Origin: Nemertoderma westbladi
Taxonomy: Eukaryota; Animalia; Xenacoelomorpha
Assembly: GCA_032718475.1 (NCBI GenBank)
Contig: JAUCBJ010001904.1
Coordinates: 1-36,088 of the forward strand
DNA length: 36,088 nucleotides
Direction: 5' to 3'
The notes under the pieces are model-generated. The model saw nothing but the letters and a program-made list of their open reading frames with translations, was not told where the DNA came from and did not search any database. This document shows positions 69-24,295 of the stretch, piece by piece (positions within the stretch are counted from its first letter, which is position 1; each line of letters opens with the position of its first letter). A program made the position numbers and the translations under genes.

Positions 69-186
69 GCTTGTTTGGCTAAAGCAAATTCTGCAGCAGA
101 TCTAGAAGAAACAATAAGTCAGGATATTGAAGTTGGTGATGGGCACCAAGTTGAGCTTGGGGACAGTGTTGCAGTATCTTATACGG
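69..186 (+). CDS. FKBP15: FKBP15 exon (start of FKBP domain)
   Basis: tttcaag|GCT...ACG G|gtaagc; ACLAKANSAADLEETISQDIEVGDGHQVELGDSVAVSYT. Confidence 0.9.
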
Positions 187-3100
187 GTAAGCCAGGACAT
201 ACTTACCTACCACACTATAAAGTATAGTTCCGAAGTAGGTCTGGGAAGATATAATCAGCAATAATAATATAATAGTGGCTGGAAAATATCAAAATATCAT
301 AGAATATAAATTAATAAGTAATTAAACAGGACTAAGGATGATCCAACTCTATAGCAAATGGAGCGGAAAAAATGAATTCGCCACCAGCTGGATTTGCTAT
401 AGAGTTGGATCCTCCTTAGTCCTGTTTAAATACTTATTAATTAATACATAAAAATTGTATATGTGTTTAACATCCATAGATTGTATAAATTAATACGTAA
501 TTAAACAGGACTAAGGATGATCCAACTCTATAGCAAATGGAGCGGAAAAAATGAATTCGCCACCAGCGGGGATCGAACCCGCGTCTCCCGATAAACGTTC
601 AGGTATGCTAACCACTACACTACACTACTCCATTTGCTATAGAGTTGGATCATCCTGTTTAATTACTTAATAATTTATACAATGTATGGATGTTAAACAC
701 ATATAAAATAATCATAGAATATAACTTTTAGTGAAAGTGAAAGTTGAATTTGTGTTTAATGAAAAAAAAACAGTTTATTTTGTAATGTTTCAGAGAGGCA
801 GAACAACCTAACGAAAATTAACATTTACACTTTAGCTGTTTTACCTCTTATATACAATGTTGGGTCCGTTGTTCTGGTTCACTATTATCTACTAAATATA
901 AATAGTAAAAAAGGTGATAAAAATATGCGGCTCTAGGAATTTAATATAACGCCATCTTGTGTCATTTTGGTGAAAAGCCTTTTGAGAAAATGTTTTGTCG
1001 TTTTGTCTCTATAGCAACTAAAAATAACTTGAACATTTCGCATCTCTCAATTTCCATCCAGAATAAATTTTTTTAACACAAAACATTATTCATTCTTCCA
1101 CTAAAATTAATATTTTACCGCGGTTATAAAAGCCTACATATGTAACCTGTTCCTTTCCCGCAATTGGTAACAACATTGTTTATTGTTTTGGTTATAAAAG
1201 CCTACCTCTAACCTGCTCCTTTCCCCCAATTGGTAACGACACTGTTTATTGTTTTGGTTATAAAGCCTACTTCTATAACCTGCTCCTTTCCCCCAATTGG
1301 TAACGACACTGTTTATTGTTTTGGTTATAAAGCCTACTTCTATAACCTGCTCCTTTCCCCCAATTGGTAACGACACTGTTTATTGTTTTGGTTATAAAGC
1401 CTACTTCTATAACCTGCTCCTTTCCCCCAATTGGTAACGACACTGTTTATTGTTTTGGTTATAAAGCCTACTTCTATAACCTGCTCCTTTCCCCCAATTG
1501 GTAACGACACTGTTTATTGTTTTGGTTATAAAGCCTACTTCTATAACCTGCTCCTTTCCCCCAATTGGTAACGACTCTGTTTATTGTTTTGGATATAAAA
1601 GCCTACTTCTATAACCTGCTCCTTTCCCCCAATTGGTAACGACTCTGTTTATTGTTTTGGATATAAAAGCCTACTTCTATAACCTGCTCCTTTCCCCCAA
1701 TTGGTAACGGCACTGTTTATTGTTTTGGATATAAAAGCCTACTTCTATAACCTGCTCCTTTCCCCCAATTGGTAACGACTCTGTTTATTGTTTTGGTTAT
1801 AAAAGCCTACCTCTGTACCCTGCTCATTCCCCCAATTGGTAACAACATTGTTTATTGTTTTGGATATAAAAGCCTACTTCTATAACCTGCTCCTTTCCCC
1901 CAATTGGTCACAACATTGTTTATTGTTTTGGATATAAAAGCCTACTTCTATAACCTGCTCCTTTCCCCCAATTGGTAACAACATTGTTTATTGTTTTGGA
2001 TATAAAAGCCTACTTCTATAACCTGCTCCTTTCCCCCAATTGGTAACGACACTGTTTATTGTTTTGGTTATAAAGCCTACTTCTATAACCTGCTCCTTTT
2101 TTTTCCCCCCAATTGGTAACAACATTGTTTTGTTTTGGTTATAAAAGCCTAACTCTGTAACCTATTCATTTTCCCCAATTGGTAACAACACTGTTTATTG
2201 TTTTGGTTATAAAAGCCTACTTCTATAACCTGCTGCTTTCCCCCAATTGGTAACAACATTGTTTTTTTTTGGTTATAAAAGCCTAACTCTGTAACCTATT
2301 CATTTTCCCCAATTGGTAACAACACTGTTTATTGTTTTGGTTATAAAAGCCTACTTCTATAACCTGCTGCTTTCCCCCAATTGGTAACAACATTGTTTTG
2401 TTTTGGTTATAAAAGCCTAACTCTGTAACCTATTCCTTTTCCCCAATTGGTAACAACACTGTTTATTATTAAGTTACTACTTTTTTCTTAGGTTATTTGG
2501 TTACCATAAGTTCCTATTTTTTATTAGGTTATTTGGTTACCAATAAGTTCCTATTTTTTATTAGGTTATTTGGTTACCAATAAGTTCCTATTTTTTATTA
2601 GGTTATTTGGTTACCAATAAGTTCCTATTTTTTATTAGGTTATTTGGTTACCAATAAGTTCCTATTTTTTCTTAGGTTATTTGGTTACCAATAAGTTCCT
2701 ATTTTTTATTAGGTTATTTGGTTACCAATAAGTTCCTATTTTTTTATTAGGTTATTTGGTTACCAATAAGTTCCTATTTTTTATTAGGTTATTTGGTTAC
2801 CAATAAGTTCCTATTTTTTATTAGATTATTTGGTTACCAATAAGTTCCTATTTTTTATTAGGTTATTTGGTTACCAATAAGTTACTACTTTTTTATTAGG
2901 TTATTTGGTTACCAATAAGTTCCTATTTTTTATTAGGTTATTTGGTTACCAATAAGTTCCTATTTTTTATTAGATTATTTGGTTACCAATAAGTTCCTAT
3001 TTTTTATTAGGTTATTTGGTTACCAATAAGTTCCTATTTTTGATTAGGTTATTTGGTTACCAATAAGTTCCTATTGTTTCTTAGGTTATTTGGTTACCAA

Positions 3101-6100
3101 TAAGTTCCTATTTTTTATTAGGTTATTTGGTTACCAATAAGTTCCTATTTTTTTATTAGGTTATTTGGTTACCAATAAGTTCCTATTTTTTATTAGGTTA
3201 TTTGGTTACCAATAAGTTCCTATTTTTTATTAGATTATTTGGTTACCAATAAGTTCCTATTTTTTATTAGGTTATTTGGTTACCAATAAGTTACTACTTT
3301 TTTATTAGGTTATTTGGTTACCAATAAGTTCCTATTTTTTATTAGGTTATTTGGTTACCAATAAGTTCCTATTTTTTATTAGATTATTTGGTTACCAATA
3401 AGTTCCTATTTTTTATTAGGTTATTTGGTTACCAATAAGTTCCTATTTTTGATTAGGTTATTTGGTTACCAATAAGTTCCTATTGTTTCTTAGGTTATTT
3501 GGTTACCAATAAGTTCCTATTTTTTGTTAGGTTATTTGGTTACCAATAAGTTCCTATTTTTTATTAGGTTATTTGGTTACCAATAAGTTCCTATTTTTTG
3601 TTAGGTTATTTGGTTACCAATAAGTTCCTATTTTTTATTAGGTTATTTGGTTACCAATAAGTTCCTATTTTTTGTTAGGTTATTTGGTTACCAATAAGTT
3701 CCTATTTTTTATTAGGTTATTTGGTTACCAATAAGTTCCTATTTTTTGTTAGGTTATTTGGTTACCAATAAGTTCCTATTTTTTATTAGGTTATTTGGTT
3801 ACCAATAAGTTCCTATTTTTTGTTAGGTTATTTGGTTACCAATAAGTTCCTATTTTTTATTAGGTTATTTGGTTACCAATAAGTTCCTATTTTTTATTAG
3901 GTTATTTGGTTACCAATAAGTTCCTATTTTTTGTTAGGTTATTTGGTTACCAATAAGTTCCTATTTTTTATTAGGTTATTTGGTTACCAATAAGTTCCTA
4001 TTTTTTATTAGGTTATTTGGTTACCAATAAGTTCCTATTTTTTTATTAGGTTATTTGGTTACCAATAAGTTCCTATTTTTAATTAGGTTATTTGGTTACC
4101 AATAAGTTCCTATTTTTTATTAGGTTATTTGGTTACCAATAAGTTCCTATTTTTTATTAGGTTATTTGGTTACCAATAAGTTCCTATTTTTTGTTAGGTT
4201 ATTTGGTTACCAATAAGTTCCTATTTTTTATTAGGTTATTTGGTTACCAATAAGTTCCTATTGTTTCTTAGGTTATTTGGTTACCAATAAGTTCCTATTT
4301 TTTGTTAGGTTATTTGGTTACCAATAAGTTCCTATTTTTTATTAGGTTATTTGGTTACCAATAAGTTCCTATTTTTTATTAGGTTATTTGGTTACCAATA
4401 AGTTCCTATTTTTTATTAGGTTATTTGGTTACCAATAAGTTCCTATTTTTTATTAGGTTATTTGGTTACCAATAAGTTCCTATTTTTTTATTAGGTTATT
4501 TGGTTACCAATAAGTTCCTATTTTTTATTAGGTTATTTGGTTACCAATAAGTTCCTATTTTTAATTAGGTTATTTGGTTACCAATAAGTTCCTATTTTTA
4601 ATTAGGTTATTTGGTTACCAATAAGTTCCTATTTTTTATTAGGTTATTTGGTTACCAATAAGTTCCTATTTTTAATTAGGTTATTTGGTTACCAATAAGT
4701 TCCTATTTTTTATTAGGTTATTTGGTTACCAATAAGTTCCTATTTTTAATTAGGTTATTTGGTTACCAATAAGTTCCTATTTTTTATTAGGTTATTTGGT
4801 TACCAATAAGTTCCTATTTTTTATTAGGTTATTTGGTTACCAATAAGTTCCTATTTTTTGTTAGGTTATTTGGTTACCAATAAGTTCCTATTTTTTATTA
4901 GGTTATTTGGTTACCAATAAGTTCCTATTTTTTATTAGGTTATTTGGTTACCAATAAGTTCCTATTTTTTATTAGGTTATTTGGTTACCAATAAGTTCCT
5001 ATTTTTTATTAGGTTATTTGGTTACCAATAAGTTCCTATTGTTTCTTAGGTTATTTGGTTACCAATAAGTTCCTATTTTTTGTTAGGTTATTTGGTTACC
5101 AATAAGTTCCTATTTTTTATTAGGTTATTTGGTTACCAATAAGTTCCTATTTTTTATTAGGTTATTTGGTTACCAATAAGTTCCTATTTTTTATTAGGTT
5201 ATTTGGTTACCAATAAGTTCCTATTTTTTATTAGGTTATTTGGTTACCAATAAGTTCCTATTTTTAATTAGGTTATTTGGTTACCAATAAGTTCCTATTT
5301 TTTATTAGGTTATTTGGTTACCAATAAGTTCCTATTTTTAATTAGGTTATTTGGTTACCAATAAGTTCCTATTTTTTATTAGGTTATTTGGTTACCAATA
5401 AGTTCCTATTTTTTATTAGGTTATTTGGTTACCAATAAGTTCCTATTTTTTGTTAGGTTATTTGGTTACCAATAAGTTCCTATTTTTTATTAGGTTATTT
5501 GGTTACCAATAAGTTCCTATTTTTTATTAGGTTATTTGGTTACCAATAAGTTCCTATTTTTTATTAGGTTATTTGGTTACCAATAAGTTCCTATTTTTTA
5601 TTAGGTTATTTGGTTACCAATAAGTTCCTATTGTTTCTTAGGTTATTTGGTTACCAATAAGTTCCTATTTTTTGTTAGGTTATTTGGTTACCAATAAGTT
5701 CCTATTTTTTATTAGGTTATTTGGTTACCAATAAGTTCCTATTTTTTATTAGGTTATTTGGTTACCAATAAGTTCCTATTTTTTATTAGGTTATTTGGTT
5801 ACCAATAAGTTCCTATTGTTTCTTAGGTTATTTGGTTACCAATAAGTTCCTATTTTTTGTTAGGTTATTTGGTTACCAATAAGTTCCTATTTTTTATTAG
5901 GTTATTTGGTTACCAATAAGTTCCTATTTTTTATTAGGTTATTTGGTTACCAATAAGTTCCTATTGTTTCTTAGGTTATTTGGTTACCAATAAGTTCCTA
6001 TTTTTTGTTAGGTTATTTGGTTACCAATAAGTTCCTATTTTTTATTAGGTTATTTGGTTACCAATAAGTTCCTATTTTTTATTAGGTTATTTGGTTACCA

Positions 6101-9100
6101 ATAAGTTCCTATTTTTTATTAGGTTATTTGGTTACCAATAAGTTTCTATTTTTTATTAGGTTATTTGGTTACCAATAAGTTCCTATTTTTTTATTAGGTT
6201 ATTTGGTTACCAATAAGTTCCTATTTTTAATTAGGTTATTTGGTTACCAATAAGTTCCTATTGTTTCTTAGGTTATTTGGTTACCAATAAGTTCCTATTT
6301 TTTATTAGGTTATTTGGTTACCAATAAGTTCCTATTTTTTATTAGGTTATTTGGTTACCAATAAGTTCCTATTTTTTATTAGGTTATTTGGTTACCAATA
6401 AGTTCCTATTTTTTATTAGGTTATTTGGTTACCAATAAGTTCCTATTTTTTATTAGGTTATTTGGTTACCAATAAGTTCCTATTTTTTATTAGGTTATTT
6501 GGTTACCAATAAGTTCCTATTTTTTATTAGGTTATTTGGTTACCAATAAGTTCCTATTTTTTATTAGGTTATTTGGTTACCAATAAGTTCCTATTTTTTA
6601 TTAGGTTATTTGGTTACCAATAAGTTACTACTTTTTTATTAGGTTATTTGGTTACCAATAAGTTCCTATTTTTTATTAGGTTATTTGGTTACCAATAAGT
6701 TCCTATTTTTTATTAGGTTATTTGGTTACCAATAAGTTCCTATTTTTTATTAGGTTATTTGGTTACCAATAAGTTCCTATTTTTTATTAGGTTATTTGGT
6801 TACCAATAAGTTCCTATTTTTTATTAGGTTATTTGGTTACCAATAAGTTCCTATTTTTTATTAGGTTATTTGGTTACCAATAAGTTACTACTTTTTTATT
6901 AGGTTATTTGGTTACCAATAAGTTCCTATTTTTTATTAGGTTATTTGGTTACCAATAAGTTCCTATTTTTTATTAGGTTATTTGGTTACCAATAAGTTCC
7001 TATTTTTTATTAGGTTATTTGGTTACCAATAAGTTCCTATTTTTTATTAGGTTATTTGGTTACCAATAAGTTCCTATTTTTCCTTAGGTTATTTGGTTAC
7101 CAATAAGTTCCTATTTTTTATTAGGTTATTTGGTTACCAATAAGTTCCTATTTTTTATTAGGTTATTTGGTTACCAATAAGTTCCTATTTTTTATTAGGT
7201 TATTTGGTTACCAATAAGTTCCTATTTTTTATTAGGTTATTTGGTTACCAATAAGTTACTACTTTTTTCTTAGGTTATTTGGTTACCAATAAGTTCCTAT
7301 TTTTTATTAGGTTATTTGGTTACCAATAAGTTCCTATTTTTTATTAGGTTATTTGGTTACCAATAAGTTCCTATTTTTTCTTAGGTTATTTGGTTACCAA
7401 TAAGTTCCTATTTTTGATTAGGTTATTTGGTTACCAATAAGTTCCTATTTTTTATTAGGTTATTTGGTTACCAATAAGTTACTTGCCGGAGAAATAGATT
7501 CCAACCGCGATACTGAGAAACTACTGACTATGAAGATTGGCAGGGGTAAAGTGATAAAGGTAATTTATTAGTTTGAATGACATTAGTTATTAGTTTGCAC
7601 TCAACTCAATTCTTATCGTAATTATATTCCGTTATTTACTGTAAATATTATAAATGTCGTCTCTCTATTATAGATCCATTGTTTTTATTATCCAATATTG
7701 GTTATGGTAACAATTCCGACAGAAATAATTCACTATGACGTCACCCTAACTACAAACTGGTACACACGTCATGTAGTTAGTATCTTAATAAAAAATCATC
7801 TTTTTGGTGTTTTTTTATTAAGTCGAGGCCGTAACTTCTTCCGAAATTTATATTTTATACTAAATCACTGTAAATATTATTGGTTGCCTTAGGGATGGGA
7901 GAATGGAATGATTGGAATGCATCGCAATTCCCGTAGAGTGTTAGTTATTCCACCGCTAGAGGGATACGGAAGTAAAGCCATAACAGACCGAATTCCCGCC
8001 AACTCAACGCTGGTATTTGATGTTCAAATTGTAAAAGTAAGTTATAAAATGTAAAAATAGTAAGTTGTAGATTTATCTTAAACTGTCATTGGGCCATGCG
8101 GGTTGACATAAGTCCCATGTTATCCCTCTAACCAAAATAATAAACCGAAGTCGATAGTGCTGATTACAGTTTAATGTTGCTGGTAATAAATCAGCTCAAG
8201 TTAATTTTCCTGTGGAGATGGACGTATTTTGATGGCTCCCGAGTCCCCAACCCCTCTTTTTAAACTACGTATTATAAATCTTTAAGCTAAATGTTCTCCC
8301 ATCATTCACCCCCGATGCGGTAATAAATCGTTTTAGATTAAACCGTCGAGCGATATATCGGGCTCGTCTTCGCCCCTTACGATACCCACCAAACCGGTAG
8401 CAGGAGGTCCATTGCCGCGCCCCGAGAGAGTTGCTTCGGTTAAGGACCGGACGAGTTCTTTAGACGATCAGATGAAGCTGCCGCCTTCATCCCCGGGTAA
8501 GTAAACCTATTATTATTATATACCAAACCAATGCCCATGTTGTCCAATAACAATCTATTAATATTTGAACAAACCCGGAAACAATACAGTCCCTCATAGC
8601 GCTTCACTTTACGCCTTTTGATTAGGTTATTTTATATTAAAATGGATAAATATCTAAAAATTTTAAAAGTATTTATCTCTTAAAAAGTAAATTTTAAACG
8701 GTCAATTCCATTTTACCTTTCTATAATTATATAGGTGTAGATTCCACCAAAGCAAAGTTGATAAGTCGCATGGCGCGAATGGGGCAGGCGACTCTGCCAT
8801 TGGCTGGAGCCACTGTAGCAGTTGAGTCATCGGATTCGGAACCGGAGTCGGATAGACTTATGGAAGGTAAGTAGTGATGTAGACTTAGTATTTGTTGTAC
8901 TTAAGAGTGTCTCGAAATTTTTTAATATTTTCGATTTGCTCATCTCAGCTTCTATTGTCTAGTTGGTGATTCTGATTTCGATTAGGAAAATGTAAAAACA
9001 TAAAAACGCAAAATTAATCCGATAGAGAACCATATCCGGGGGGGGGGGGGGGGGGCTAATACTCATTCGACTCATCCGTTTTTCAAAATTTACAGTTATG

Positions 9101-12100
9101 TTTGTCATATTGTTTTTTCATTGACACGACGGCAAAACCACGAAATTCGGTTGAAATTGAGTTTATTATAAAAAGAAAATCTTTCCAAATTTTGTGGAAA
9201 CACGATTAGAGTTTTTGTCTCAGCTTTAGCAATCCGATGTGTTGATGGTTTGCAACATGCGTGTAAATTGTTTTTTTTATTCCGTTCCTTTCAGAATCCA
9301 GCGAAGAAACCAGAGTTCCCTCAACGAGAAGTTACAGCCCTCACTTGGCAACCAATAGCGACGTACTTGGCCCTCCCTTAGCAACCCAACGCTCCAATCG
9401 TAGAAACCCCGCTACCCAAAGAGCCCCCAAACCTACACCCGTCCCAACCACTAACCCGCCTTACCAACAGCAACAACATCAACATCCCGCTATGTACGAT
9501 CAAGGTTATTCAGCTTATCAACAACAACCTCCTTACCATCAACATCAACAACAACCGGTGCTCCTGGCTTCGGGCCCGATGCTGATTGGTCCGCGTCCAT
9601 CACTACCAACAGCTATGCAACCCACACAGGAGCTCGCTGTTTACCAGCCGGCCAATCAGGTGAGCTGGTTCATTAGTTCGATTATTATTGGTGCTCTACA
9701 AGGCAGACAACATGCAACTGCTGTTACAATGTTAATATACTAGTGCTGCTCTTTGTCTGCTGAATATACAATTAAACCTCAGTGATGAACATGACTTTCG
9801 AACCCTGTGGTCGTGGTGTAGTTGCATGAGAAAATATTGTCAAAGTTCCATACAACCCTGACTCGAAAAAGTAACAACTATTTAAGAATATATACCGAGA
9901 GTTATTATTCTATTCATCGTGTGTGATATACCCCACTGGAGCTCTACTCGAGTTCCTGCAGCTATTATTAGTTTGTTTGTGGTTGGGTGGCTGACCGGCT
10001 GGGTTTGTGGTTGGGTGGCTGACCGGCTGGGTTTGTGGCTGGCTTTGTGTGTGTGGCATGAATGTTTGAACGCTAATAAGTCGGTCAATCTGGGATGAAG
10101 TGGAACCAAACTTGGTACACATGTAGTGTAACAAAAATAAAGAAATTCTACACACATGTAGACTTCTATAGTTCCTCCGTCTACCGCTAGGGGGCGATTT
10201 GACAGAAACGTAAAAGTAGCTGTAATTATAGAACCAAACATCAGATTCATCTGAAATTTGTTAGTAGTAACCTAAGAGCAGACAGACTTTTACAGTTCCT
10301 CTGTCTGCCGCTAGGGGGCGAATAGAGCTCCAGTTCATCGTGCTTAGCACGGTTTAATTATATTGTATTTTTCAGCCAGCACCAGCGTTCTCGCAGTTTC
10401 CCGTGGCTACGTCAGCGCTCTACAATTCCTTGCCGCCACAACCTCAGCCTGCGGTCCCAGCACCTACGGTTCCAGCACCATCGAACCCATCACCCTCGAT
10501 GGGCAGTGAAGTAGCTCTGAGCGAGAGTCGACATAATCAAACCGAAATAAGGTCGGTTATCTTCTAAAGAAGCTCGACTTCTGTTACACATAGTTCGTTG
10601 TTCACCCCCGGACATCTTTACGCGGTTTTTCTTTTTATGTGTATACCACTTTGCAATTAATATTTGTAACTTTTACCCACAATTTGAAAATTTGTCACTT
10701 TGTTGGAGCTCCGCTATTCTCAAAGTAGAAGAGAAAATGTTCCAAACAAAGTTATTTCGAGAAAAACTCTCGAATTAGTTTTCTATTTGGTTCCAACTTT
10801 CCAAATATGCACCAAAAGTGAAATTTTTCAAAATAATTTTTTTTATGGTTTTATATACCTGTTTTTTTTGGCGCTGATTCCGAAAATAGTAAAATATATA
10901 ATTCTTATATTTTTTTATATGGTATTAAACCATCACCCTAAACAGTATTAAGTAATAATAAATTACCAATTATGTTTAACTTAATAATAAATTATATTAA
11001 TTTTATAAATAATTATTTATTATATGAATTATATAGAAAAACAAACAGAAAATATTCGATAAATAATCCGGCAAATAATCCGGCAAATAATCCGGCAAAT
11101 AATCCGCAATCCGCAATCGGCAAACATGAAGTAGACGTCAAGAAACAGGACATGGGGCAATTTTACAAGCCCGTCGGTTAGGCGGGCATTTAGGTGGTAA
11201 TAATTCCTTCCATCCATGCAGTGTATCGTCCCCATTACTGATGCAGCATAGTAGGACCGTGGCTCCAGCGTCACGAAGATTCGCTTCATCAGGAACTGGT
11301 AGGACCGTGGCTCCAGCGTCACGAGGATTCGCTGCATCGGGAACTGGTATGACCGTGGCTCCAGCGTCACGAAGATTCGCTGCATCAGGAACTGGTAGGA
11401 CCGTGGCTCCAGCGTCACGAGGATTCGCTGCATCAGGAACTGGTAGGACCGTGGCTCCAGCGTCACGAGGATTCGCTGCATCAGGAACTGGTAGGACCGT
11501 GGCTCCAGCGTCACGAGGATTCGGTGCATCAGGAACTGGTAGGACCGTGGCTCCAGCGTCACGAGGATTCGCTGCATCAGGAACTGGTAGGACCGTGGCT
11601 CCAGCGTCACGAGGATTCGCTGCATCAGGAACTGGTAGGACCGTGGCTCCAGCGTCACGAGGATTCGCTGCATCAGGAACTGGTAGGACCGTGGCTCCCG
11701 CGTCACGAGGATTCGCTGCATCAGGAACTGGTAGGACCGTGGCTCCAGCGTCACGAGGATTCGCTGCAGGAACTGGTAGGACCGTGGCTCCAGCGTCACG
11801 AGGATTCGCTGCATCAGGAACTGGTAGGACCGTGGCTCCAGCGTCACGAGGATTCGCTGCATCAGGAACTGGTAGGACCGTGGCTCCAGCGTCACGAGGA
11901 TTCGCTGCAGGAACTGGTAGGACCGTGGCTCCAGCGTCACGAGGATTCGCTGCATCAGGAGATGGTAGGACCGTGGCTCCAGCGTCACGAGGATTCGCTG
12001 CAGGAACTGGTAGGACTGTAGCTCCAGCGTCACGAGGATTCGCTGCAGGCACTGGTAGGACCGTAGCTCCAGCATCACGAGGATTCGCTGCAGGCACTGG

Positions 12101-15100
12101 TAGGACCGTAGCTCCAGCATCACGAGGATTCGCTGCATCAGGAACTGGTAGGACCGTGGCTCCAGCATCACGAGGATTCGCTGCATCAGGAACTGGTAGG
12201 ACCGTGGCTCCAGCATCACGAGGATTCGCTGCATCAGGAACTGGTAGGACCGTGGCTCCAGCGTCACGAGGATTCGCTGCATCAGGACCTGGTAGGACCG
12301 TGGCTCCAGCGTCACGAGGATTCGCTGCAGGAACTGGTAGGACCGTGGCTCCAGCGTCACGAGGATTCGCTGCATCAGGAACTGGTAGAACCGTGGCTCC
12401 AGCGTCACGAGGATTCGCTGCATCAGGAACTGGTAGGACCGTGGCTCCAGCGTCACGAGGATTCGCTGCATCAGGAACTGGTAGGACCGTGGCTCCAGCA
12501 TCACGAGGATTCGCTGCATCAGGAACTGGTAGGACCGTGGCTCCAGCGTCACGAGGATTCGCTGCAGGAACTGGTAGGACCGTGGCTCCAGCGTCACGAG
12601 GATTCGCTGCATCAGGAACTGGTAGGACCGTGGCTCCAGCATCACGAGGATTCGCTGCATCAGGAACTGGTAGGACGTGGCTCCAGCGTCACGAGGATTC
12701 GCTGCATCAGGAACTGGTAGGACCGTGGCTCCAGCGTCACGAGGATTCGCTGCATCAGGAACTGGTAGGACCGTGGCTCCAGCGTCACGAGGATTCGCTG
12801 CATCAGGAACTGGTAGGACCGTGGCTCCAGCATCACGAGGATACGCTGCATCAGGAACTGGTAGGACCGTGGCTCCAGCGTCACGATGATTCGCTGCATC
12901 AGGAACTGGTGGAACCGTGGCTCCAGCGTCACGAGGATTCGCTGCATCAGGAACTGGTGGGACCGTGGCTCCAGCGTCACGAGGATTCACTGCATCAGGA
13001 ACTGGTAGGACCGTGGCTCCAGCGTCACGAGGATTCGCTGCATCAGGAACTGGTAGGACCGTGGCTCCAGCGTCACGAGGATTCGCTGCATCAGGAACTG
13101 GTAGGACCGTGGCTCCAGCGTCACGAGGATTCGCTGCATCGGGAACTGGTATGACCGTGGCTCCAGCATCACGAGGATTCGCTGCATCAGGAACTGGTAG
13201 GACCGTGGCTCCAGCGTCACGAGGATTCGCTGCATCAGGAACTGGTAGGACCGTGGCTCCAGCGTCACGAGGATTCGCTGCATCAGGAACTGGTAGGACC
13301 GTGGCTCCAGCGTCACGAGGATTCGCTGCATCAGGAACTGGTAGGACCGTGGCTCCAGCGTCACGAGGATTCGCTGCATCAGGAACTTGTAGGACCGTGG
13401 CTCCAGCGTCACTTCCCGGATACTTTTCCCGATTTCATTGAGGAACTGAACTGGCTTGTTGCTGACCCCGGTCTACCCAAAGTCTCAAATAGCCGCGGTT
13501 GCCAAGCTCCTCAAACTTTCGGAATTTCCGGTTCTCTGCCTCCCCAGCTGCGCTATGGGAGCCGGATAATGTGTGCCTGATTTTGCTGGCAGCAAGTGGT
13601 TTACTATACTGTTGCGTATTGTTAATGTACGGCCCTGGGCCCATGGGACTATAGGGTCACCCCATCCAGCCTCTCTCCATCCCCTCTACAGAGGCCAGGT
13701 GGCTCCTTGGTGTTGGCCAACGCACCTTCTGCGTGAGCGTTGGAGCGTTATAATATTTTTAATAATTTAAAATATTATAATTGTATATTAATAATAATAA
13801 TAATAAATTAATATATAAAATAAAATATATTTATATATTTTACCAGGGTCTCCCTAACTAAGATGACAGACAAGCTGGAATTGTTGGCCGACCGATTGGA
13901 CGGGATTCAGCGCAGTACCGCGTTACTTGGCAACCCATCACTGCCGGTCGTCCAGGAAGCCAGCACGCTCCTAGCGGGAATATCGAGAATTTGTCAGGAG
14001 AATGAGAGAGTGAAGGCGACCCTGGCGGAACGTAACCGAAAGGTTGAAGAGCAGAATGTGAAGATATCCGACTTACTAAACCGAAATCAACAGTAAGTGA
14101 GTTAAATTACGTTACCCGTTGTGTCAAAATGGCACTTTTCGGCGTTTAAGTCCCTTTAATATTTATGTAAACCTCCTTCGCTTCTCTCGTTCGGTACATA
14201 TAAATACAATCGAGTCATAACGCTGAAAAAGTGTTACAAGCAAGCAAACAGTCGGCCGAAGCCGGAGGCAACCCGAAGGCTCCCTTTCGGTAGCCGCTAC
14301 CCGAAGGTAGGGGTGGGCGCTACTCCCATCTGCTACCCGAAGGTAGGGGTGGGCGCTACTCCTATCTGTTACCCGAAGGTAGGGGTGGGCGCTACTCCTA
14401 TCTGCTACCCGAAGGTAGGGGTGGGCGCTACTCCTATCTGCTACCAGAAGGTAGGGGTGGGGGCTACTCCTATCTGCTACCCGAAGGTAGGGGTGGGCGC
14501 TACTCCTATCTGCTACCCGAAGGTAGGGGTGGGCGCTACTCCTATCTGCTACCCGAAGGTAGGGGTGGGCGCTACTCCTATCTGCTACCCGAAGGTAGGG
14601 GTGGGCGCTACTCCTATCTGCTACCCGAAGGTAGGGGTGGGCGCTACTCCTATCTGCTACCCGAAGGTAGGGGTGGGCGCTACTCCTATCTGCTACCCGA
14701 AGGTAGGGGTGGGCGCTACTCCTATCTGCTACCCGAAGGTAGGGGTGGGCGCTACTCCTATCTGCTACCCGAGGGTAGGGGTGGGCGCTACTCCTATCTG
14801 CTACCCGAAGGTAGGGGTGGTCGCTACTCCCTAGTTTTGCTCTCATTAATTCAACTGGTCCTCATATACTTTTACAGAATGATGTAAATAGTTATTTGTT
14901 GAATTAATTTGCCTTATTGTGCAGATTTATCGAGCAAAGTAATGTGTTGTTGGAGCAACGTAATGAAACATTCCACACGACTGCCACTCAAGCCCAATCG
15001 AGGCTCGGCGTACTGGAAGAGGAGAGAGCCAAACAGTCGGTTGAACTGAGTACCGCTCTGGCTAGGGTGTCGACACTAACCCTGGAACTCAATGCGCTAA

Positions 15101-17981
15101 AAGAAGACGAAGTCGATGTGAAGCGGCGTCTAACGGAGACGATGGGAGCCTTACGAGCGACAACGAGTGAACGAGCCAATCTTAAGGGGCAGTTACAGGA
15201 AGCGGAGGGAGTGAGAGAGACACTGCAATCGAGTCTAAAGGAAGATCGGTTGCTAAGGAAACAGTTAGAAACAAAGGTAAAGTAAAGTATAGCCAATTAT
15301 AATTTGTAAATGCCTCTCATAAGTTGCACTATTCAATTAAAATTATTATAATGTGCAATTATATTTTTAATGGAATTATATTTCTTCTATTTTTATTGTC
15401 TCTCTTCTTTGGACGACTAAACCTACTTTTTTTTGCTTAACTATTAACTATTGGCTACTGTTCCACTTTATTCACCGTGATATAAATAGATACATTTATA
15501 GTGTTCGATTCTTTATCATATTATTATCTTTCATTTTATAATTTATTTGATTTTACATTTTAGTTAAACGAAGTTGAGGACGATTTTTCCGAATCCAAAT
15601 CGAAAATAGCTATGCTGGAAAAGTTTTATGCTGAGAAAAAGGAAAAGTCCGTTAAAGATAATAAAATACACGAGGATGAGTTGTTGGAGTTGAGAGAAAG
15701 TCATAAGAGTGAAGTTGAATCTCTTCAGAAGAAGTTGAGAACTTTGCGACTTAGTAAGGATAACGCCGTGTCCGAACAGGTGAGCGAGGTATTCTTTATT
15801 TTGTGTTTTTTTTTTAATTTTATTGTTAAATTACTTGGTTTTAGTTCGATCGTTTGGTTCAATATTCGGTTTTATTTTAACTTCTACCAACTATCTCGTA
15901 TCAACCACTTTAACCACTTTGCGGGTTACCTAGGTTACTAATAATCCAGGTTAAATTGGGATCAGACCAAAGAATTTAAAAAAGTGCAGATAAAGTTTGA
16001 GCTATTTTAGGTCGCCATTGTTGAAATATCTCACTTTACAATTATAACAAAACGAGATGATTTACAGTTTGAAATAAATAAGGCTTTATATTGTTGGTTG
16101 CAGTTGTCTTTGGTGGAAAAGGAACAAGCTGAACATTGGAGTAATAAGTTGGAACAGAATTTGGCGAAGGAACGCAAAAACCACCTAGCCAAGGAATCAG
16201 TTTTGCAAGATGCAAACGATGAACTCGAAGCCAATATGAACTTGTTGCAGCGGAAAACTGACGATCAGAAGACGATAATAAGTGAGAGTAAAGAGAAACT
16301 GAGTGCTTACGAGGAGCAAGTGAGTAATCTTACCGATGAGGTCGGGTCATGGAAACAACGGTACCAGAATCTTATCAAGAATGTCAGGGATATGAAAGGG
16401 CAGTATGAAGAGAAAGTTGGCGAGCTGGAAGCTGAGATAGAACAGCTGGAGTCCCGTGTTGATTCGGGATCTGGTGATGTTATTAATGAAACAAAGAAGG
16501 TTATGAATGGTGTATTCCATTCGCTACGCGCCGAAATTGATGCTAATGATACCTACCGAGGCAGTAAAGTGATATCTATTGTTATGGAAACTATAAAATC
16601 TGTTACTCTGAAAATGACAGCGCCGCCCGCAAGGGACGACTCTGTAGAGCACGAAGAGAGCGGAGATGGTGATTCAGACGTAGATGATGATGATGTTGCT
16701 AATCCTGTCGATGATGTTCGAGAAGAGTTTGCCAATAAAGCGCCTGAGTCGGGGAGTAGGCGGGTCTCCTTCCACAGTGAGGTGTTGGAGTACGGTGACG
16801 ATGCAAATAGCAGTGGCGTGGCGGTTCTCAATGAAGAATACCATTCCTTGGGTCGTTACAAAGATGCACTGGAAGTAGCAGCCCTTTCTGCCAACAAACC
16901 TGGTAATAATGATGATGGAGATGGTGAGGATGAGGATGACGAAAGTCCTAAAGACGACGATGCCGAAGATATAGCTCCTAATGTATTAATTCAGCCGGAT
17001 GTTCTAACGGACAGACCGGAGGCCGAACAGGATGTAGATCTTCCACAACAACTTACCGGAGTTATCGGTGACGCGGTACCGGAAGGGACGTTACCTGGCA
17101 ATGACGTAGATTTTGAACAACCGGAAGTAGTTACAATACATGACTCACAATCGGGTGAATTGCCATTAGCAGTTGTCGATAGTCATCCATCACGAGATGA
17201 AGTCGATGTAATAAGTGATTCCGAGCCGGAAGTAGATACGCAGCATTTAATCCCGGAAGTGGACACGCCGGAAGTGGATAAATTACGTGAAATAGAACAG
17301 GAAGTAGAAATATTACATGAATCTCAACCGGAAGTGGTACATGACTCTCAACCGGAAGTGGTACATGACTCTCAACCGGAAGTGGTACATGACTCTCAAC
17401 CGGAAGTGGTACACGACTCTCAACCGGAAGTGGTACATAAATCTCAACCGGAAGTCGATGCATTTGAAGATAAACTGGAAGTGGATCCATTACGTCACCC
17501 AAGCCCAGTCGAATCTCAACCAAAAGTAAATGATATATTGCGTCAATCCCAACCGGAAGTAGACATATTACATGACTCAAAACCCGAAATAGAGATCGCT
17601 AATAATCCCTTAGCAGTGAGCGATGTGAGTTCTCCTGTGCGAACGGGCGATTCAATGGAAAACCTGTCTGAAACTGAAGATTTAACCAATCAGAGCGTCG
17701 CTATTAAGCCGACCGATAAAGTGGGTAGTTCGTTGGAATCAGATGGAACCGGCGCCGATCGTAGTAATAAATCGAGCGATCCTGTTATTCATAAAAATAG
17801 TAAAAGTAAAGAAATTAAAGGAATATTTGATAATGAGGACAGTGATGATGATGATAACATATTTGCGGAGAAAACCACCACCGTTGTTGCTAAAGCGACG
17901 AAGGTTGAACCACCTCCATCGCCACTCTTCGGGGGCGATTCGGACTCTGATGACGATTTAACTTGGTTGAAATCATCCTAG
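69..17981 (+). CDS. FKBP15: FK506-binding protein 15 orthologue, 5'-partial; join(69..186,7459..7559,7893..8036,8337..8496,8735..8866,9295..9659,10376..10551,13847..14092,14925..15276,15564..15779,16104..17981)
   Basis: All introns are GT-AG and the phases join into one 3888-nt frame. Recognisable FKBP15 blocks: FKBP domain (VELGDSVAVSYTG...KIGRGKVIKGWENGMIGM...LVIPP...NSTLVFDV), KAKLISRMARMGQ, ESRHNQTEIR, QENERVK...KISDLLNRNQQFIEQSN, KKVMNGVFHSLR...METIKSVTL, and C-terminal PLFGGDSDSDDDLTWL. The window starts at a GTGAGT donor, so the N-terminus lies upstream. Confidence 0.93.
308..442. mobile_element. Internally deleted copy of the palindromic MITE-like element
   Basis: ~50-bp inverted arms (aattaataagtaattaaacaggactaaggatgatccaactctatagcaaat and its near-perfect reverse complement) around a ~32-bp spacer that matches part of the core of 458-705. 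Confidence 0.7.
458..705. mobile_element. MITE-like foldback element with ~80-bp TIRs and a tRNA-derived core
   Basis: tatatgtgtttaacatccata...tagcaaatggag (458-542) pairs with ctccatttgctatag...tatggatgttaaacacatata (628-705). Confidence 0.75.
558..629 (-). pseudogene. tRNA-derived (SINE-head-like) pseudo-tRNA
   Basis: Minus strand: TAGTGTAGTGGTTAGCA (A box), CCTGA-ACGTTTA-TCGGG (anticodon arm), GCGGG-TTCGATC-CCCGC (T arm/B box), then TTTTTT. The acceptor stem does not pair and position 33 is not U. Confidence 0.65.
1121..2467. repeat. 67-68 bp minisatellite, ~20 copies
   Basis: Unit ggttataaa(a)gcctacttctataacctgctcctttcccccaattggtaacgacactgtttattgtttt; period 67 measured between 1324 and 1391. 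Confidence 0.95.
2470..7480 (+). repeat. 37-bp satellite, ~135 copies, made of the FKBP15 3' splice site plus exon start
   Basis: Unit cctattttttattag|gttatttggttaccaataagtt; the last unit runs directly into the coding exon at 7459. Confidence 0.97.
7459..7559 (+). CDS. FKBP15: FKBP15 exon (FKBP domain); its first 22 nt are the last satellite unit
   Basis: ttattag|GT TAT TTG GTT ACC AAT AAG TTA CTT...ATA AAG|gtaatt; (G)YLVTNKLLAGEIDSNRDTEKLLTMKIGRGKVIK. Confidence 0.88.
7893..8036 (+). CDS. FKBP15: FKBP15 exon (end of FKBP domain)
   Basis: ccttag|GGA...AAA|gtaagt; GWENGMIGMHRNSRRVLVIPPLEGYGSKAITDRIPANSTLVFDVQIVK. Confidence 0.92.
8337..8496 (+). CDS. FKBP15: FKBP15 exon (Ser/Pro linker)
   Basis: ttttag|ATT...CCG G|gtaagt; open frame IKPSSDISG...KDRTSSLDDQMKLPPSSP. 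Confidence 0.85.
8735..8866 (+). CDS. FKBP15: FKBP15 exon
   Basis: atatag|GT...GAA G|gtaagt; DSTKAKLISRMARMGQATLP; a second in-frame AG lies 6 nt downstream (alternative start 8741). Confidence 0.88.
9295..9659 (+). CDS. FKBP15: FKBP15 exon (Pro/Gln-rich)
   Basis: ctttcag|AA TCC...CAG|gtgagc; same frame as ORF 9345..9743. Confidence 0.85.
9902..10355 (+). mobile_element. Non-autonomous Helentron-associated (DINE-1/HINE-like) element
   Basis: Subterminal inverted repeat actggagctcta (9935-9946) / tagagctccagt (10323-10334), GT-rich microsatellite-like tract near the 5' end, internal ~38-bp direct repeat, and 3' stem-loop cgtgc-tta-gcacg (10339-10351) followed by Ts. Boundaries approximate. 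Confidence 0.6.
10376..10551 (+). CDS. FKBP15: FKBP15 exon
   Basis: ttttcag|CCA...ATA AG|gtcggt; ends ...SEVALSESRHNQTEI(R). Confidence 0.85.
11061..13750 (-). mobile_element. 5'-truncated, frameshifted 3' end of a CRE-like non-LTR retrotransposon (restriction-like endonuclease domain)
   Basis: Minus-strand fragments across frameshifts: KEPPGLCRGDGERLDGVTL / VPWAQGRTL / SAAGEAENRKFRKFEELG / FETLGRPG / FLNEIGKSIREVTLEPRSYKFLMQRI ... AASVMGT. These match the RLE C-terminal pattern RPDG-x-TL-x-PW ... AE-xx-K-xx-KY ... ET-x-G ... EPR-xxx-FL-x-QR ... NAA-x-V-x-GT. Boundaries approximate. Confidence 0.72.
11250..13412. repeat. 45-bp (some 42-bp) GC-rich minisatellite, ~48 copies
   Basis: Unit gtaggaccgtggctccagcgtcacgaggattcgctgca(tca)ggaactg; inside the FKBP15 intron 10552-13846. 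Confidence 0.97.
13847..14092 (+). CDS. FKBP15: FKBP15 exon (coiled coil)
   Basis: taccag|G GTC...CAA CA|gtaagt; VSLTKMTDKL...QENERVK...KISDLLNRNQ. Confidence 0.92.
14296..14832. repeat. 36-bp G-rich minisatellite, ~15 copies
   Basis: Unit gctacccgaaggtaggggtgggcgctactcctatct; intronic. Confidence 0.95.
14925..15276 (+). CDS. FKBP15: FKBP15 exon (coiled coil)
   Basis: gtgcag|A TTT ATC GAG CAA...AAG|gtaaag; FIEQSNVLLEQRN...RKQLETK. Confidence 0.92.
15564..15779 (+). CDS. FKBP15: FKBP15 exon (coiled coil)
   Basis: ttttag|TTA AAC...CAG|gtgagc; LNEVEDDF...LEKFYAEKKEKS...AVSEQ. Confidence 0.9.
16104..17981 (+). CDS. FKBP15: FKBP15 terminal exon (coiled coil, acidic region, LF-acidic C-terminus)
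   Basis: ttgcag|TTG TCT TTG GTG...TAG; KKVMNGVFHSLR, TIKSVTL, PLFGGDSDSDDDLTWL. Confidence 0.92.
   Translation: MSLVEKEQAEHWSNKLEQNLAKERKNHLAKESVLQDANDELEANMNLLQRKTDDQKTIISESKEKLSAYEEQVSNLTDEVGSWKQRYQNLIKNVRDMKGQYEEKVGELEAEIEQLESRVDSGSGDVINETKKVMNGVFHSLRAEIDANDTYRGSKVISIVMETIKSVTLKMTAPPARDDSVEHEESGDGDSDVDDDDVANPVDDVREEFANKAPESGSRRVSFHSEVLEYGDDANSSGVAVLNEEYHSLGRYKDALEVAALSANKPGNNDDGDGEDEDDESPKDDDAEDIAPNVLIQPDVLTDRPEAEQDVDLPQQLTGVIGDAVPEGTLPGNDVDFEQPEVVTIHDSQSGELPLAVVDSHPSRDEVDVISDSEPEVDTQHLIPEVDTPEVDKLREIEQEVEILHESQPEVVHDSQPEVVHDSQPEVVHDSQPEVVHDSQPEVVHKSQPEVDAFEDKLEVDPLRHPSPVESQPKVNDILRQSQPEVDILHDSKPEIEIANNPLAVSDVSSPVRTGDSMENLSETEDLTNQSVAIKPTDKVGSSLESDGTGADRSNKSSDPVIHKNSKSKEIKGIFDNEDSDDDDNIFAEKTTTVVAKATKVEPPPSPLFGGDSDSDDDLTWLKSS
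17316..17459 (+). repeat. Coding 24-bp repeat (HDSQPEVV) x6 with degenerate flanking copies
   Basis: catgactctcaaccggaagtggta units, in frame within the FKBP15 last exon. Confidence 0.92.
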
Positions 17982-18522: not shown

Positions 18523-18804
18523 TTATTTTTACCTTTGTCCCCCGCCACCACACCATGGATGGTAACTTATATTTTTACCTTTGTCCCCCGCCACCACACC
18601 ATGGATGGTAACTTATATTTTTACCTTTGTCCCCCGCCACCACACCATGGATGGTAACTTATATTTTTACCTTTGTCCCCCGCCACCACACCATGGATGG
18701 TAACTTATATTTTTACCTTTGTCCCCCGCCACCACACCATGGATGGTAACTTATATTTTTACCTTTGTCCCCCGCCACCACACCATGGATGGTAACTTAT
18801 ATTT
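18523..18804. repeat. 46-bp tandem repeat x6
   Basis: tatttttacctttgtcccccgccaccacaccatggatggtaactta; period 46 (18531, 18577, ... 18761). Confidence 0.95.
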
Positions 18805-20420: not shown

Positions 20421-23400
20421 CTATGAGTATTCTTTAGGCCAGCACAGAATCCAATCAGGGCCATCCTTTTTGAACTCGGGTCGACTCCTATTGGCTAACT
20501 CCACTATAACTCGATGTGGCTTTTGTTTTTCAACATAACGGACTTCCTCTTCGATGGTTATCCGGAGATCCGCCCCCTTCGCGCGTCGGAACTCCATCAA
20601 TATAACAGCCAACTCTGCGACTCTATTCTCCATCCTCCCGTTGTACAAACACATTACCAAATCCGTCCCGCCCTCCATGTGGAACACAACCAGCTGATCG
20701 CCCCCGGGCGTGAAACTCAACCCTATTATGTCTGCCGTCGGGTGCGATTTCAACTCCTTAAAATCTTTCTTGTGATCCAACTTATAAATATGTTTCTCTG
20801 TGATCAACAATCCCCGAGATGTGGACTTCCCTTGCTTGTTCACCTTTTTTATGAAACCCGAAAAGAGAACTCCCCTTGATCCTTCTTCCTCCTGGGCCAA
20901 TAATCGGCTGGATACCGAAAGAAATGTCGCGGATGATAAATGCTCTCGCGGCAGCGCCAAGTAGTTCCCAGCCCAGGCTCTCATCAAACCCAATTGCTCC
21001 TTTTTCCCTTTCAAGGAATCCACTGCCAATATCTTCAATTTGATCGCGTGGTAGTCCTCTTGTTTAACGCTTTGTAGCAAGGCGAACATCCTCCAGCGGT
21101 AGAAGATCTTCTGCAACTTGAGACTGAACTTATAGAGAGCCCACGGTGGGGGCGGCCATACGATAGATTTACCGAAGTCCGGTGCATCTCTCACCCCCCG
21201 GAACAACTTACTAACAGCTAGGATGTAAGATCGCAGTTTGTAGGTTTTAAACTGTTTGATTATTTTGTAGACGTAGAACATTAAACGGAATCGCTGTCGA
21301 GCCATGGCACCTCGCCACATCTTCTGTAGAAACTTTAATATAAATGGTAGAAGCTGAAGTCTCGATTCCTCCAATATGTACAACGATTGTCGACTCCGCA
21401 CGTATATATTTCCTTCTCCGAGTTCGCAATCACCGAGAACTCCTTTGCCGTGGCAAATAATTCGGAGACCTTCTTCGATTTTCTTCCCGTAGTAGTTAGG
21501 CCAGGTGTAGACGGAGAGACACTTGTATCTCTGCATGAATTCCGCATGAGACATAGTGTGACAATAGCTATTCTGGCGGTATTTTATGTAGTTGAGGACT
21601 GCGTGTTCGCCAAGCTGCCTCAATACTGCCTCCCAATTGAACGACCCTGGTTTATTTGTATCATTGCCTCTTAGGCACCAAATGTAATGCGTCTTTCGGA
21701 ATGCAATGCGGTTCATGACCTGATTGAATGACCGTCGCATTCGTTGACTCACCGTGTTGGGAAACTCGTGACTGCTAGATAACCTCTTGCCTCTCTTTTG
21801 GATACCACCAGCGCTGCTATCAATATCTTTAAGAAAATCACTAATTCCCTTTTCATCCATATTTGCGTATATGTGACCTTGACCACGCTGTGGAACTCTT
21901 TCCAATAATAATTCCTTTAAACTAGGTATGTTTGAAGAATTTGCGAGATTGTAGAATTCTCTACTCCAAGAATCGGCATTCTTGGATATAAATCCATCAA
22001 CATTGTACACAACCTTCCCAGCAAAATGCGATATCGTGAACTGATTAGTGTCTTTTGTACCTTTGTACTGGCTGTAGCTCGATAGTTTTTGATTCAATGT
22101 CACCATCAGCATATTGTCATCAACATATCCTATATCCCGACAGCATTCATCGACCACCGACAACATTCCCTTATAAGACTGATCGATTAGTTCGCAGACC
22201 AACTTATTGGTTGTACAAGGAATCATCTCCCATTCCAATTTATCTCTAATTAACCTCTGTTGGGGTCTTCTTATTCCTTGTTCTACAATCACATTGTGCA
22301 GTTTCTCATTCACGTAGTTTATAACAAGCTGCTCGAATCCGTTGTGGGAGTCAGTGGTGTTGCCTTGGAAACCAGGAAAGTCTAGGAGCCCGAGAACATT
22401 GTGGCGATGGTGAACCTCAGGTGGCGTTGGCTCCTACAAGATTATGAAAAAACTTGAGATAAAATTATTAAAATCATGATATTTTATTTAAAGAACAAAG
22501 ATTGGGACACCCAAAGCTCAAACACCTCCAAGTGCTTAATATGTTATATGATGCATTTATAAGTATGGTTTATAGTTGTCGCTACAGAATAAGATCCTGT
22601 ACAGAATATAGTAATATTTCATTTAGAATTAATAATTCGCCAGAGGTATTGTTGTCTTTAAATCTACCCAAATCAAAGCCAACGCTTATTACATACCTGA
22701 ATTTTATTGACGACCTCTATCAGCCAGTAGACGATTCCCTCAAATAGGGAATCAATAAGATTGTTCGTCGTCTTCACGGCTTCTTCTACGCTGTTACCCC
22801 AGTCTATAGCGTCGCCCATGGCAACCTGGCTATGGAAACACAAAGTCTGACTCAGTTGGCCAGGCGTTACCCCTAGCAACGCCGCAGCCGGTTCCATGTA
22901 GGTGGTTACACAGTCAGGATCTATGGTAGCCTCCATATCGGAGTCCGCAATGAACTCTACGTTGCCTAGTAACAGCACAGCAGCAACAGTCCGCCACACT
23001 GTCTCGCATTGGTCTGTGTCCAACCCGGCAGCACGGAGAGCGTTGGCCGTCTCTGTGTAAACGTCCGCCCAATCATATACCTCGGGTACCTATAGGAGAT
23101 GTTGATAAATGAAAATGAGAGAGTAATACAATTATATGTAATATCCGTGGAGGGTGGACGCAATTACAACCTTTTCCGAATTCATATCTCGTCTCAAAGT
23201 TAAATTATCAATTAAGGGAAATCCCATGCCATACAGATATATATTATACAGAAAAACGTATTCCTTTTTAATACCTTTTTTTTTTATCTAAACCATATTT
23301 TAACCTTAATGTTTGTAATGAGGTGGTATGATAATTTTAAAATTGATAAATTCATCAACTCAATTTGTAAGTTATAACTACCGCACGTGAAATTACCTGG

Positions 23401-24134: not shown

Positions 24135-24295
24135 GGTATCCACCAGTCAAGGATTAAAAAAATGTTATTTAATAGTTTTATGTACAATAATTATTCAAAA
24201 CTGGAAACGTTATTTGTCTTATACTTAATGGGTAGTTTGAACTTGCTTTATTATATTAGACCATCACCCTTAATACAACAACCATTTTAAGCAGG

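What the first reader, a model, noticed from the sequence alone, without database searches (positions are those of the whole stretch)
2470..7559. A 5-kb satellite built from the host gene's own 3' splice site: ~135 tandem acceptors, only the last productive
Seen: each 37-bp unit is a pyrimidine tract, TAG, and the first 22 nt of the FKBP15 exon (ttttttattag|GTTATTTGGTTACCAATAAGTT). The last unit reads G-Y-L-V-T-N-K-L into the FKBP domain, in phase with the exon ending at 186. Seen: splicing to the penultimate copy reads ...AAG TTC CTA TTT TTT ATT AGG TTA TTT GGT TAC CAA TAA, a premature stop. Earlier copies also hit a stop within about two units. Known: scanning models favour the first AG after a branch point, and exon definition should discriminate poorly between acceptors 37 nt apart. 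Inference: the rest of the gene is intact, so either a mechanism picks the distal copy among ~135 near-identical ones, or array length tunes productive versus NMD-bound mRNA.
Basis: partly seen in the sequence, partly recalled or inferred. Interest (0 to 1): 0.88.

Follow-up and report, generated by a model that had tools for sequence, protein, structure and literature searches.

The report
Splice-acceptor "mirage" repeat in FKBP15
The end of one intron and the first 22 bases of the next exon of an animal's FKBP15 gene are repeated 135 times in a row, yet the one assembled transcript found joins at the last, correct copy, so this is likely a tolerated, unusually large example of a repeat type already known from lancelets.

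Summary
The array is real: 135 copies of a 37-bp unit (2470-7480), each an intact acceptor plus the first 22 nt of an FKBP15 exon. All 134 internal copies would give a stop within 38-92 nt. The unit is multi-copy in DNA runs of two samples. One spliced contig joins donor 186 straight to the last copy; contigs drop minor forms, and that sample's own allele was not seen.

This fits the lancelet "mirage" minisatellites (PMC3087553: 3-6 units, splicing undisturbed), here about 20 times larger. The scan has already noted many such arrays, some far bigger, in this genome and others (unchecked notes).

Likely mechanism: cross-exon choice of the acceptor nearest donor 7559, helped by the purine-rich exon body that only the last copy has. 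Acceptor strength and RNA folding do not single out the last copy. Length-tuned NMD is unsupported but untested. One open twist: 130 of 134 internal copies read AG|GT, so a wrong splice would recreate a weak donor, and re-splicing would give the correct mRNA. New member of a known kind; interest 0.3.

The parts
69..186 (+). Upstream FKBP15 exon; donor after 186 (phase 1)
   Evidence: The 30-letter loose end of the X1 contig equals window 156-185; open frame. The exon's 5' boundary is inferred from the AG at 67-68.
187..7458 (+). Intron of 7,272 nt that holds the 68-bp array and the 37-bp array
   Evidence: Bridged by the X1 contig, which enters at 7458 with the upstream exon as loose end
1122..2467 (.). 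Unrelated 68-bp minisatellite (19.9 copies) abutting the array; member of a dispersed family
   Evidence: likeness to the 37-mer is not significant (117 of 1000 shuffles reach it); 77-79% identical to 27059-27613
2470..2491 (+). First acceptor, likely the ancestral intron end; begins with a 9-nt match (TAAGTTACT) to exon positions +17 to +25
   Evidence: The motif stands at 2470 and 7475 and in 5 internal variant units; ancestry is inferred
2470..7480 (+). Tandem array, 135 copies: 15 nt of intron end (T tract, TAG) plus the first 22 nt of the exon; 134 non-productive acceptors
7444..7458 (+). The used acceptor (copy 135); identical from -18 to +22 to 82 internal copies
   Evidence: RNA contig; context count
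7459..7559 (+). FKBP-domain exon, 101 nt; the last 79 nt are unique, 43% GC and 63% purine; donor after 7559
   Evidence: Joint 7559-7893, GT..AG; composition; homolog alignment
7893..10551 (+). Five further spliced exons (7893-8036, 8337-8496, 8735-8866, 9295-9659, 10376-10551)
   Evidence: Joints and pieces of the same X1 contig; FKBP_C hit for 7893-8036, E 7.7e-12
13847..17981 (+). 3' exons of FKBP15 (FKBP15 domain, coiled coil, acidic tail); boundaries inferred from reading frames
   Evidence: PF23649 hits E 3.5e-10 and 1.1e-14; 6 of 8 looked-up relatives are named FK506-binding protein 15(-like)

Best explanation
The array is a tandem expansion of the gene's own intron-exon boundary (a "mirage" minisatellite), and the one spliced contig found uses the last copy, likely because the spliceosome defines the exon across from donor 7559 and takes the nearest acceptor, so the array is likely tolerated rather than functional. 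Shown: the anatomy, the stops after every internal copy, many copies in two DNA samples, and the joint from 186 to 7459. Inferred origin: slippage between two 9-nt matches flanking the ancestral acceptor made a 38-nt duplicate; a 37-nt variant then spread by multi-unit slippage or unequal exchange. Inferred choice: only the last copy is followed by the purine-rich exon body and lies closest to the donor. In every internal copy the 22 'exonic' nt hold the branch-point-like motifs of the next copy, so assembly on copy n+1 would mask copy n and bias use towards the 3' end. Rare errors would carry a stop and would be removed by NMD.
For: Run X1: 1 of 1 contig laid on 7405-8014 enters at 7458 with the upstream exon as loose end, and none lies on the two units before it. 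The same 3,617-nt contig joins six exons by five GT..AG joints. Lancelet mirages do not disturb splicing (PMC3087553 passages; PMC3902484 passage). In minigenes with two identical donors the cross-exon-nearest site was used exclusively (PMC9225289 passage). The unique exon part is 63% purine with 4 GA(A/G)A motifs, against 38% and 0 in the unit; branch-point-like adenosines at -26 and -19 lie in the exon-derived part of the preceding unit. About 65% of this gene's intron length is tandem array, and a rough count expects 0.57 of its 7 arrays to overlap a junction by chance (P of at least one 0.45). No sign of selection on the decoy AGs (P 0.54 that about 11 mutation events all miss them).
Against: The RNA evidence is one contig from one sample. 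Contigs drop rare forms and NMD would deplete wrong products, so precise choice cannot be told from sloppy choice plus decay. That sample's own array allele was not seen; it only shares the 7921 A>G variant with the array-bearing sample S2. For acceptors, PMC9225289 reports only a reduced upstream preference under exon definition, not exclusive downstream use (section 9). Human donor-side arrays do leak into neighbouring copies (6-16, CBS: PMC1557585 Introduction; ABCA7). The enhancer and masking steps rest on motif counts, not assays.
Confidence: 0.68

Rival explanations
1. Sloppy choice plus decay: several of the last copies are used, the wrong products are destroyed by NMD, and array length or make-up sets FKBP15 dose.
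For: All 134 internal copies give an early stop. Copies 128-134 would give exon sizes within the gene's range, 13 internal copies have a longer unbroken pyrimidine run than the used one, and 82 are identical to it from -18 to +22. The ABCA7 VNTR, which includes a donor, gives one-unit retention that rises under cycloheximide (PMC5954066 passages).
Against: No wrong-copy contig in X1 (weak, as contigs drop minor forms). In ABCA7, VNTR length had no effect on NMD. Under cross-exon choice, copies beyond a few hundred bases would not compete, so length above about 10 units should not matter (inference).
Confidence: 0.13
2. Self-correcting ladder: a splice from donor 186 into an internal AG|GT copy recreates a donor (the same exon end, now followed by GTTATT), and a second splice to the last copy gives exactly the correct mRNA.
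For: 130 of 134 internal copies read AG|GT. The recreated donor pairs with a recalled U1 5' end at -4.9 kcal/mol, just under the weakest donors of the gene (-5.1 to -11.1) and matched or beaten by only 7% of 121 intronic GT sites. AGGT sites work as both donor and acceptor in tandem repeats such as UBC, and tend to be weak (PMC10809524 passages). The final mRNA would be the one seen.
Against: The recreated donor lacks the purine at +3 and the G at +5 (sequence). The duplex score is crude. No intermediate was seen. The exon's opening GT encodes a glycine conserved in 17 of 17 homologs, so AG|GT needs no selection for this role.
Confidence: 0.1
3. The RNA sample carried a short allele or none, so its clean splicing says little about the 135-copy allele, which may be mildly harmful.
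For: X1 is a third sample (S1) with no DNA run listed. Mirage arrays vary in length between haplotypes (6 against 3 units; PMC3087553).
Against: Both DNA samples examined carry many copies, and X1 shares the 7921 variant with one of them.
Confidence: 0.12
4. RNA structure hides the internal acceptors: each AG|G pairs with the next unit, and only the last copy is free.
For: The unit is nearly palindromic, and internal AG|G can pair with a CCT of the same unit.
Against: Predicted openness of AG|G at the last copy is 0.016, 0.006 and 0.007 in three window sizes, against internal medians of 0.048, 0.003 and 0.020; it ranks 135, 23 and 132 of 135.
Confidence: 0.04
5. The array is an assembly artefact.
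For: No raw long reads were available; no listed contig spans the array.
Against: Ordered blocks of variant units; unique contigs of X2, X3 and X4 all start at the array's end (7449, 7451, 7471); repeat depth far above flank in two samples.
Confidence: 0.02

Closest known systems
Amphioxus 'mirage' minisatellites, above all globin BflGb6 (also BflGb9, Adh3, troponin C, PGBD5); PMC3087553 passages, PMC3902484 passage
   Same: [quoted passage not shown]
   Different: 135 units against 6 and 3 in BflGb6; 97% against 81-100% identity; another gene, and no sign that the animal is a lancelet (lineage not determined); every extra copy is non-productive here.
Human F7 intron-7 37-bp VNTR, with 6-16, CBS, LAMIN B2 and PDGF arrays; PMC1557585 abstract and Introduction
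   Same: Identical splice sites reiterated by a minisatellite; the copy adjacent to the real exon is the one mainly used.
   Different: Those are donor-side arrays of 5-25 units, explained there by 5'-to-3' scanning. Scanning would pick the first acceptor here, the wrong one, so the shared rule is 'nearest to the exon', not 'first'.
ABCA7 intron-18 25-bp VNTR; PMC5954066 passages
   Same: A long VNTR containing a splice site; use of a neighbouring copy gives a stop-bearing transcript; precedent for length effects on expression.
   Different: Donor side; length effects were measured there and were not due to NMD; nothing of the kind is measured here.
Dual-specific AGGT splice sites in tandem repeats (UBC); PMC10809524 passages
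   Same: A tandem array with AG|GT at each unit boundary.
   Different: UBC units are coding and splice stochastically to vary monomer number; here the units are intronic, stop-bearing, and donor use is not shown.
Intron gain by tandem duplication across an intron-exon boundary (potato RdRp); PMC4974935 abstract
   Same: The duplication crosses the intron end and exon start, copying tract and acceptor.
   Different: There an upstream copy became an exon with its own donor; here no internal copy appears in the contig and the unit's internal GTs are poor donors (-2.6 and -2.0).

Membership tests
Mirage minisatellite | Tandem unit spans an intron-exon boundary of the host gene | tested here: met
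   Unit = 15 nt intron + 22 nt exon; boundary shown by RNA; exon part is conserved FKBP15 code
Mirage minisatellite | Many units keep the splice signal | tested here: met
   TAG in 135 of 135
Mirage minisatellite | Minisatellite unit size (10-160 bp in the lancelet cases) | tested here: met
   36-38 bp; range from PMC3087553
Mirage minisatellite | Regular mRNA is still made from the authentic site | tested here: met
   1 of 1 X1 contig joins 186 to 7459; minor forms cannot be seen in contigs
Mirage minisatellite | Concerted turnover inside the cluster, boundary units apart | tested here: met
   82 identical units, duplicated blocks of 11 and 16 units, first unit of a rare type
Mirage minisatellite | Length differs between alleles, or somatically | tested here: inconclusive
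   Contigs collapse the array; X2 shows many variant contigs and X4 one, which may reflect depth and assembly
F7-type donor VNTR | First monomer spans an exon-intron boundary and reiterates the donor | tested here: not met
   The acceptor is reiterated and the last monomer is the authentic one; it works like the mirror image
Recursive / dual-specific AG|GT array | AG|GT at unit boundaries | tested here: met
   130 of 134 internal copies
Recursive / dual-specific AG|GT array | The recreated donor is usable | tested here: inconclusive
   -4.9 kcal/mol against -5.1 to -11.1 for 10 scored sites of the gene; top 7% of 121 background GTs; crude score
Recursive / dual-specific AG|GT array | Intermediates or lariats show use as both acceptor and donor | not testable with these tools
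   Only contigs were on offer
FKBP15 gene | FKBP domain followed by the FKBP15 coiled-coil domain | tested here: met
   PF00254, PF23649, named relatives

The most novel reading that the evidence does not exclude
The array is a self-correcting splicing ladder. Because the exon opens with GT, a splice into any of 130 decoy AG|GT copies recreates a usable donor, and re-splicing to the last copy restores the exact mRNA. Such error-proofing, together with cross-exon choice, would be what lets this animal's splice junctions grow into kilobase satellites across many essential genes, and would make them a genome-wide natural experiment on 3' splice-site choice.
Probability: 0.1. Interest if true: 0.72.

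Novelty: new member of a known kind. Interest (0 to 1): 0.3.

Why it matters
Taken alone it extends a known lancelet oddity to a much larger acceptor-side array in another gene. Its use is as a natural test piece: 82 acceptors identical from -18 to +22 differ only in what follows them, so the locus isolates position and downstream exon context from splice-site strength. The published cross-exon proximity rule is firm for donors but only statistical for acceptors (PMC9225289). If the unchecked notes on many larger arrays in this genome hold, the genome-wide pattern matters more than this locus: why junction repeats reach hundreds of copies here, and whether their make-up (AG|GT, frame, stops) departs from chance.

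Tried and rejected
No whole genome is held, so no genome-wide count of junction arrays and no search for the unit elsewhere; within the window no 14-mer of the unit lies outside the array. The run search listed no holder on record as RNA; X1, listed as 'DNA?', proved spliced when laid. Two word-indexed protein searches found nothing; the HMMER library search found 64 relatives, of which I aligned 17 long ones and looked up names for 8. Hairpin masking of internal acceptors: rejected. Acceptor strength as the selector: rejected, since 82 internal copies are identical, 3 have more pyrimidines and 13 a longer unbroken run. Exon-size limit as the selector: insufficient. Origin from the neighbouring 68-bp satellite: not supported. 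Selection to keep the decoy AGs: no signal. Part of the output is void because one anchor did not match; the model was redone from RNA joints. Some exon starts were off by one base, and one of the ten donor sites scored (15780) was misplaced; coordinates in this report follow. Paper searches listed no report of this array or of an acceptor-side array of over 100 copies; the library is open-access only, and the original Adh3 mirage paper was not seen. Look-ups of earlier notes near this place or by sequence gave nothing relevant.
Full report
What is there. The window opens inside an FKBP15 gene of an animal whose lineage I did not determine. Its exons carry FKBP_C and FKBP15 domains, and 6 of 8 relatives looked up are named FK506-binding protein 15(-like). 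The intron after donor 186 is 7,272 nt long and ends in a tandem array at 2470-7480: period 37, 135.2 copies, 97% matches. Each unit is 15 nt of intron end plus the first 22 nt of the next exon; TAG precedes 135 of 135 copies. Those 22 nt are the gene's own: the spliced model aligns to 17 of 17 homologs tested with no gap at the junction, and no 14-mer of the unit occurs elsewhere in the window. Joining donor 186 to each copy, only copy 135 is open; the other 134 stop after 38, 56 or 92 nt.

Is it real? Variant units recur in ordered blocks of 11 and 16 units. In three DNA runs of two samples the unique contig starts at the array's end (7449, 7451, 7471). In X4, whose contig shows no other letter against the window here and which may be its source, one 67-nt contig holds the collapsed unit at depth 1641 against 20.2. 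In X2, another sample, 52 contigs were laid and depth on the units is far above the flank. Depth is not a copy number, so this shows many copies in two samples, not the length.

Which copy is used? Run X1 was listed as 'DNA?' but is spliced: one 3,617-nt contig joins six exons by five GT..AG joints. It enters at 7458, and its loose end equals window 156-185, so it joins donor 186 to the last copy; it is the only X1 contig laid on 7405-8014. The seven-exon model reads 399 codons without a stop. Limits: one contig from one sample; contigs drop rare forms; NMD would deplete wrong products; and X1's own allele is unseen, though it shares the 7921 variant with the array-bearing sample.

How is it chosen? 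Not by strength: 82 of 134 internal copies are identical to the last from -18 to +22, 3 have more pyrimidines, and 13 a longer unbroken run. Not by folding: the last AG|G is predicted no more open than the rest (rank 135, 23 and 132 of 135). Not by an exon-size cap: copies 128-134 give 138-361 nt, and the gene's own exons run 101-365 nt. What differs is what follows. The last copy is nearest donor 7559 and alone is followed by a 79-nt body that is 63% purine with 4 GA(A/G)A motifs, against 38% and none in the unit. Branch-point-like adenosines at -26 and -19 lie in the exon-derived part of the preceding unit, so assembly on one copy would mask its upstream neighbour (inference). PMC9225289 (passages and section 9) reports that under exon definition the sites closest across the exon are favoured: exclusively for identical donors in minigenes, but for acceptors only as a reduced upstream preference. 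The mechanism is therefore likely, not shown.

How did it arise? A 9-nt motif opens the array at 2470 and recurs at exon positions +17 to +25 (7475) and in 5 internal 38-nt variants. Slippage between two such matches would make a 38-nt first duplicate, from which the 37-nt type differs by three changes (inference; a truncated first unit would look the same). About 65% of this gene's intron length is tandem array, and a rough count expects 0.57 of its 7 arrays to overlap a junction (P 0.45), so no special targeting is needed for this one locus. The abutting 68-bp array is a dispersed family and not significantly like the unit (117 of 1000 shuffles).

An open twist. 130 of 134 internal copies read AG|GT. 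A splice into one would leave the same exon end followed by GTTATT, a weak donor: -4.9 kcal/mol with a recalled U1 end, against -5.1 to -11.1 for ten scored sites of the gene, and in the top 7% of 121 intronic GTs. Re-splicing to the last copy would give the very mRNA seen. Weak AGGT sites act as both donor and acceptor in UBC (PMC10809524 passages). Nothing here shows such intermediates, and the GT is part of a conserved glycine codon. I give it 0.1.

What is known. Notes of this scan (unchecked AI notes) pointed me to the name 'mirage', which I checked. PMC3087553 (passages) describes tandem duplications of the intron end and exon start in lancelet globin BflGb6 (6 and 3 units) and Adh3 that do not disturb splicing; PMC3902484 (one passage) adds troponin C and PGBD5. 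PMC1557585 (abstract and Introduction) covers human donor-side arrays of 5-25 units, some leaking into the next one or two copies. PMC5954066 (passages) shows one-unit retention at ABCA7 and no effect of length on NMD. PMC4974935 (abstract) is a single boundary duplication that made an intron. PMC11830802 (TERT VNTR) I saw only as a search listing. I read no supplements; those of PMC3087553 hold the mirage alignments. Five of six mirage features are met here and allele-length variation is inconclusive. Nine searches listed no acceptor-side array of this size, within an open-access library. The notes describe many such arrays in this same genome, with 150 to about 2,100 copies, several with an RNA contig using the exon-adjacent copy and one (e1-10614089) with use of a variant copy; I tested none, they are not independent support, and readers flag junction-overlapping arrays by choice.

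Verdict. Observation confirmed; interpretation partly supported. A large new member of the mirage class, likely tolerated through cross-exon choice (0.68). Length-tuned NMD (0.13) and re-splicing (0.1) remain open because only contigs were available. Interest 0.3: a good natural test piece, but a known kind, and by the scan's notes a modest example in its own genome.

Noticed in passing
window 1122-2467 and 27059-27613: Two 68-bp arrays on opposite strands, 77-79% alike. The second sits in the middle of a roughly 2-kb element with long inverted arms (26349-27018 against 27647-28318, 81-95%), likely a foldback or MITE-like element.
   Followed up: partly
window 11251-13412, 14296-14830, 9975-10042, 17314-17455, 18524-18804: Further arrays in or just after FKBP15: 48 bp x 45.5, 36 bp x 14.9 and 28 bp x 2.4 in introns, 24 bp x 5.9 in the last exon (8-residue repeats), 46 bp x 6.1 downstream. 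None overlaps a splice junction.
   Followed up: partly
window 2470-7480: Unit variants cluster in the intronic part (unit positions 23-33); the 22 exonic nt are nearly invariant (one G>A type in 4 units, one deletion). This may be a homopolymer hot spot, or homogenisation from the coding copy.
   Followed up: partly
window 7407-7421: The penultimate acceptor has an interrupted T tract of a type found in 3 of 135 copies; may be chance.
   Followed up: no
window 7921: A>G in X1, X2 and X3 but not X4; by reading the frame it changes His to Arg, where most homologs have Lys.
   Followed up: partly
window 20421-24146, minus strand: Class I myosin (Myosin_head plus TH1) in only three reading-frame blocks: unusually intron-poor, possibly a retrocopy.
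   Followed up: partly
window 28754-30097, plus strand: 447-codon open frame with no Pfam match above cut-off (weak OTU, E 0.009); possibly from a mobile element.
   Followed up: partly
window 321-660: By eye, a piece of about 90 bp occurs twice, the second time with an insert that looks tRNA-derived.
   Followed up: no
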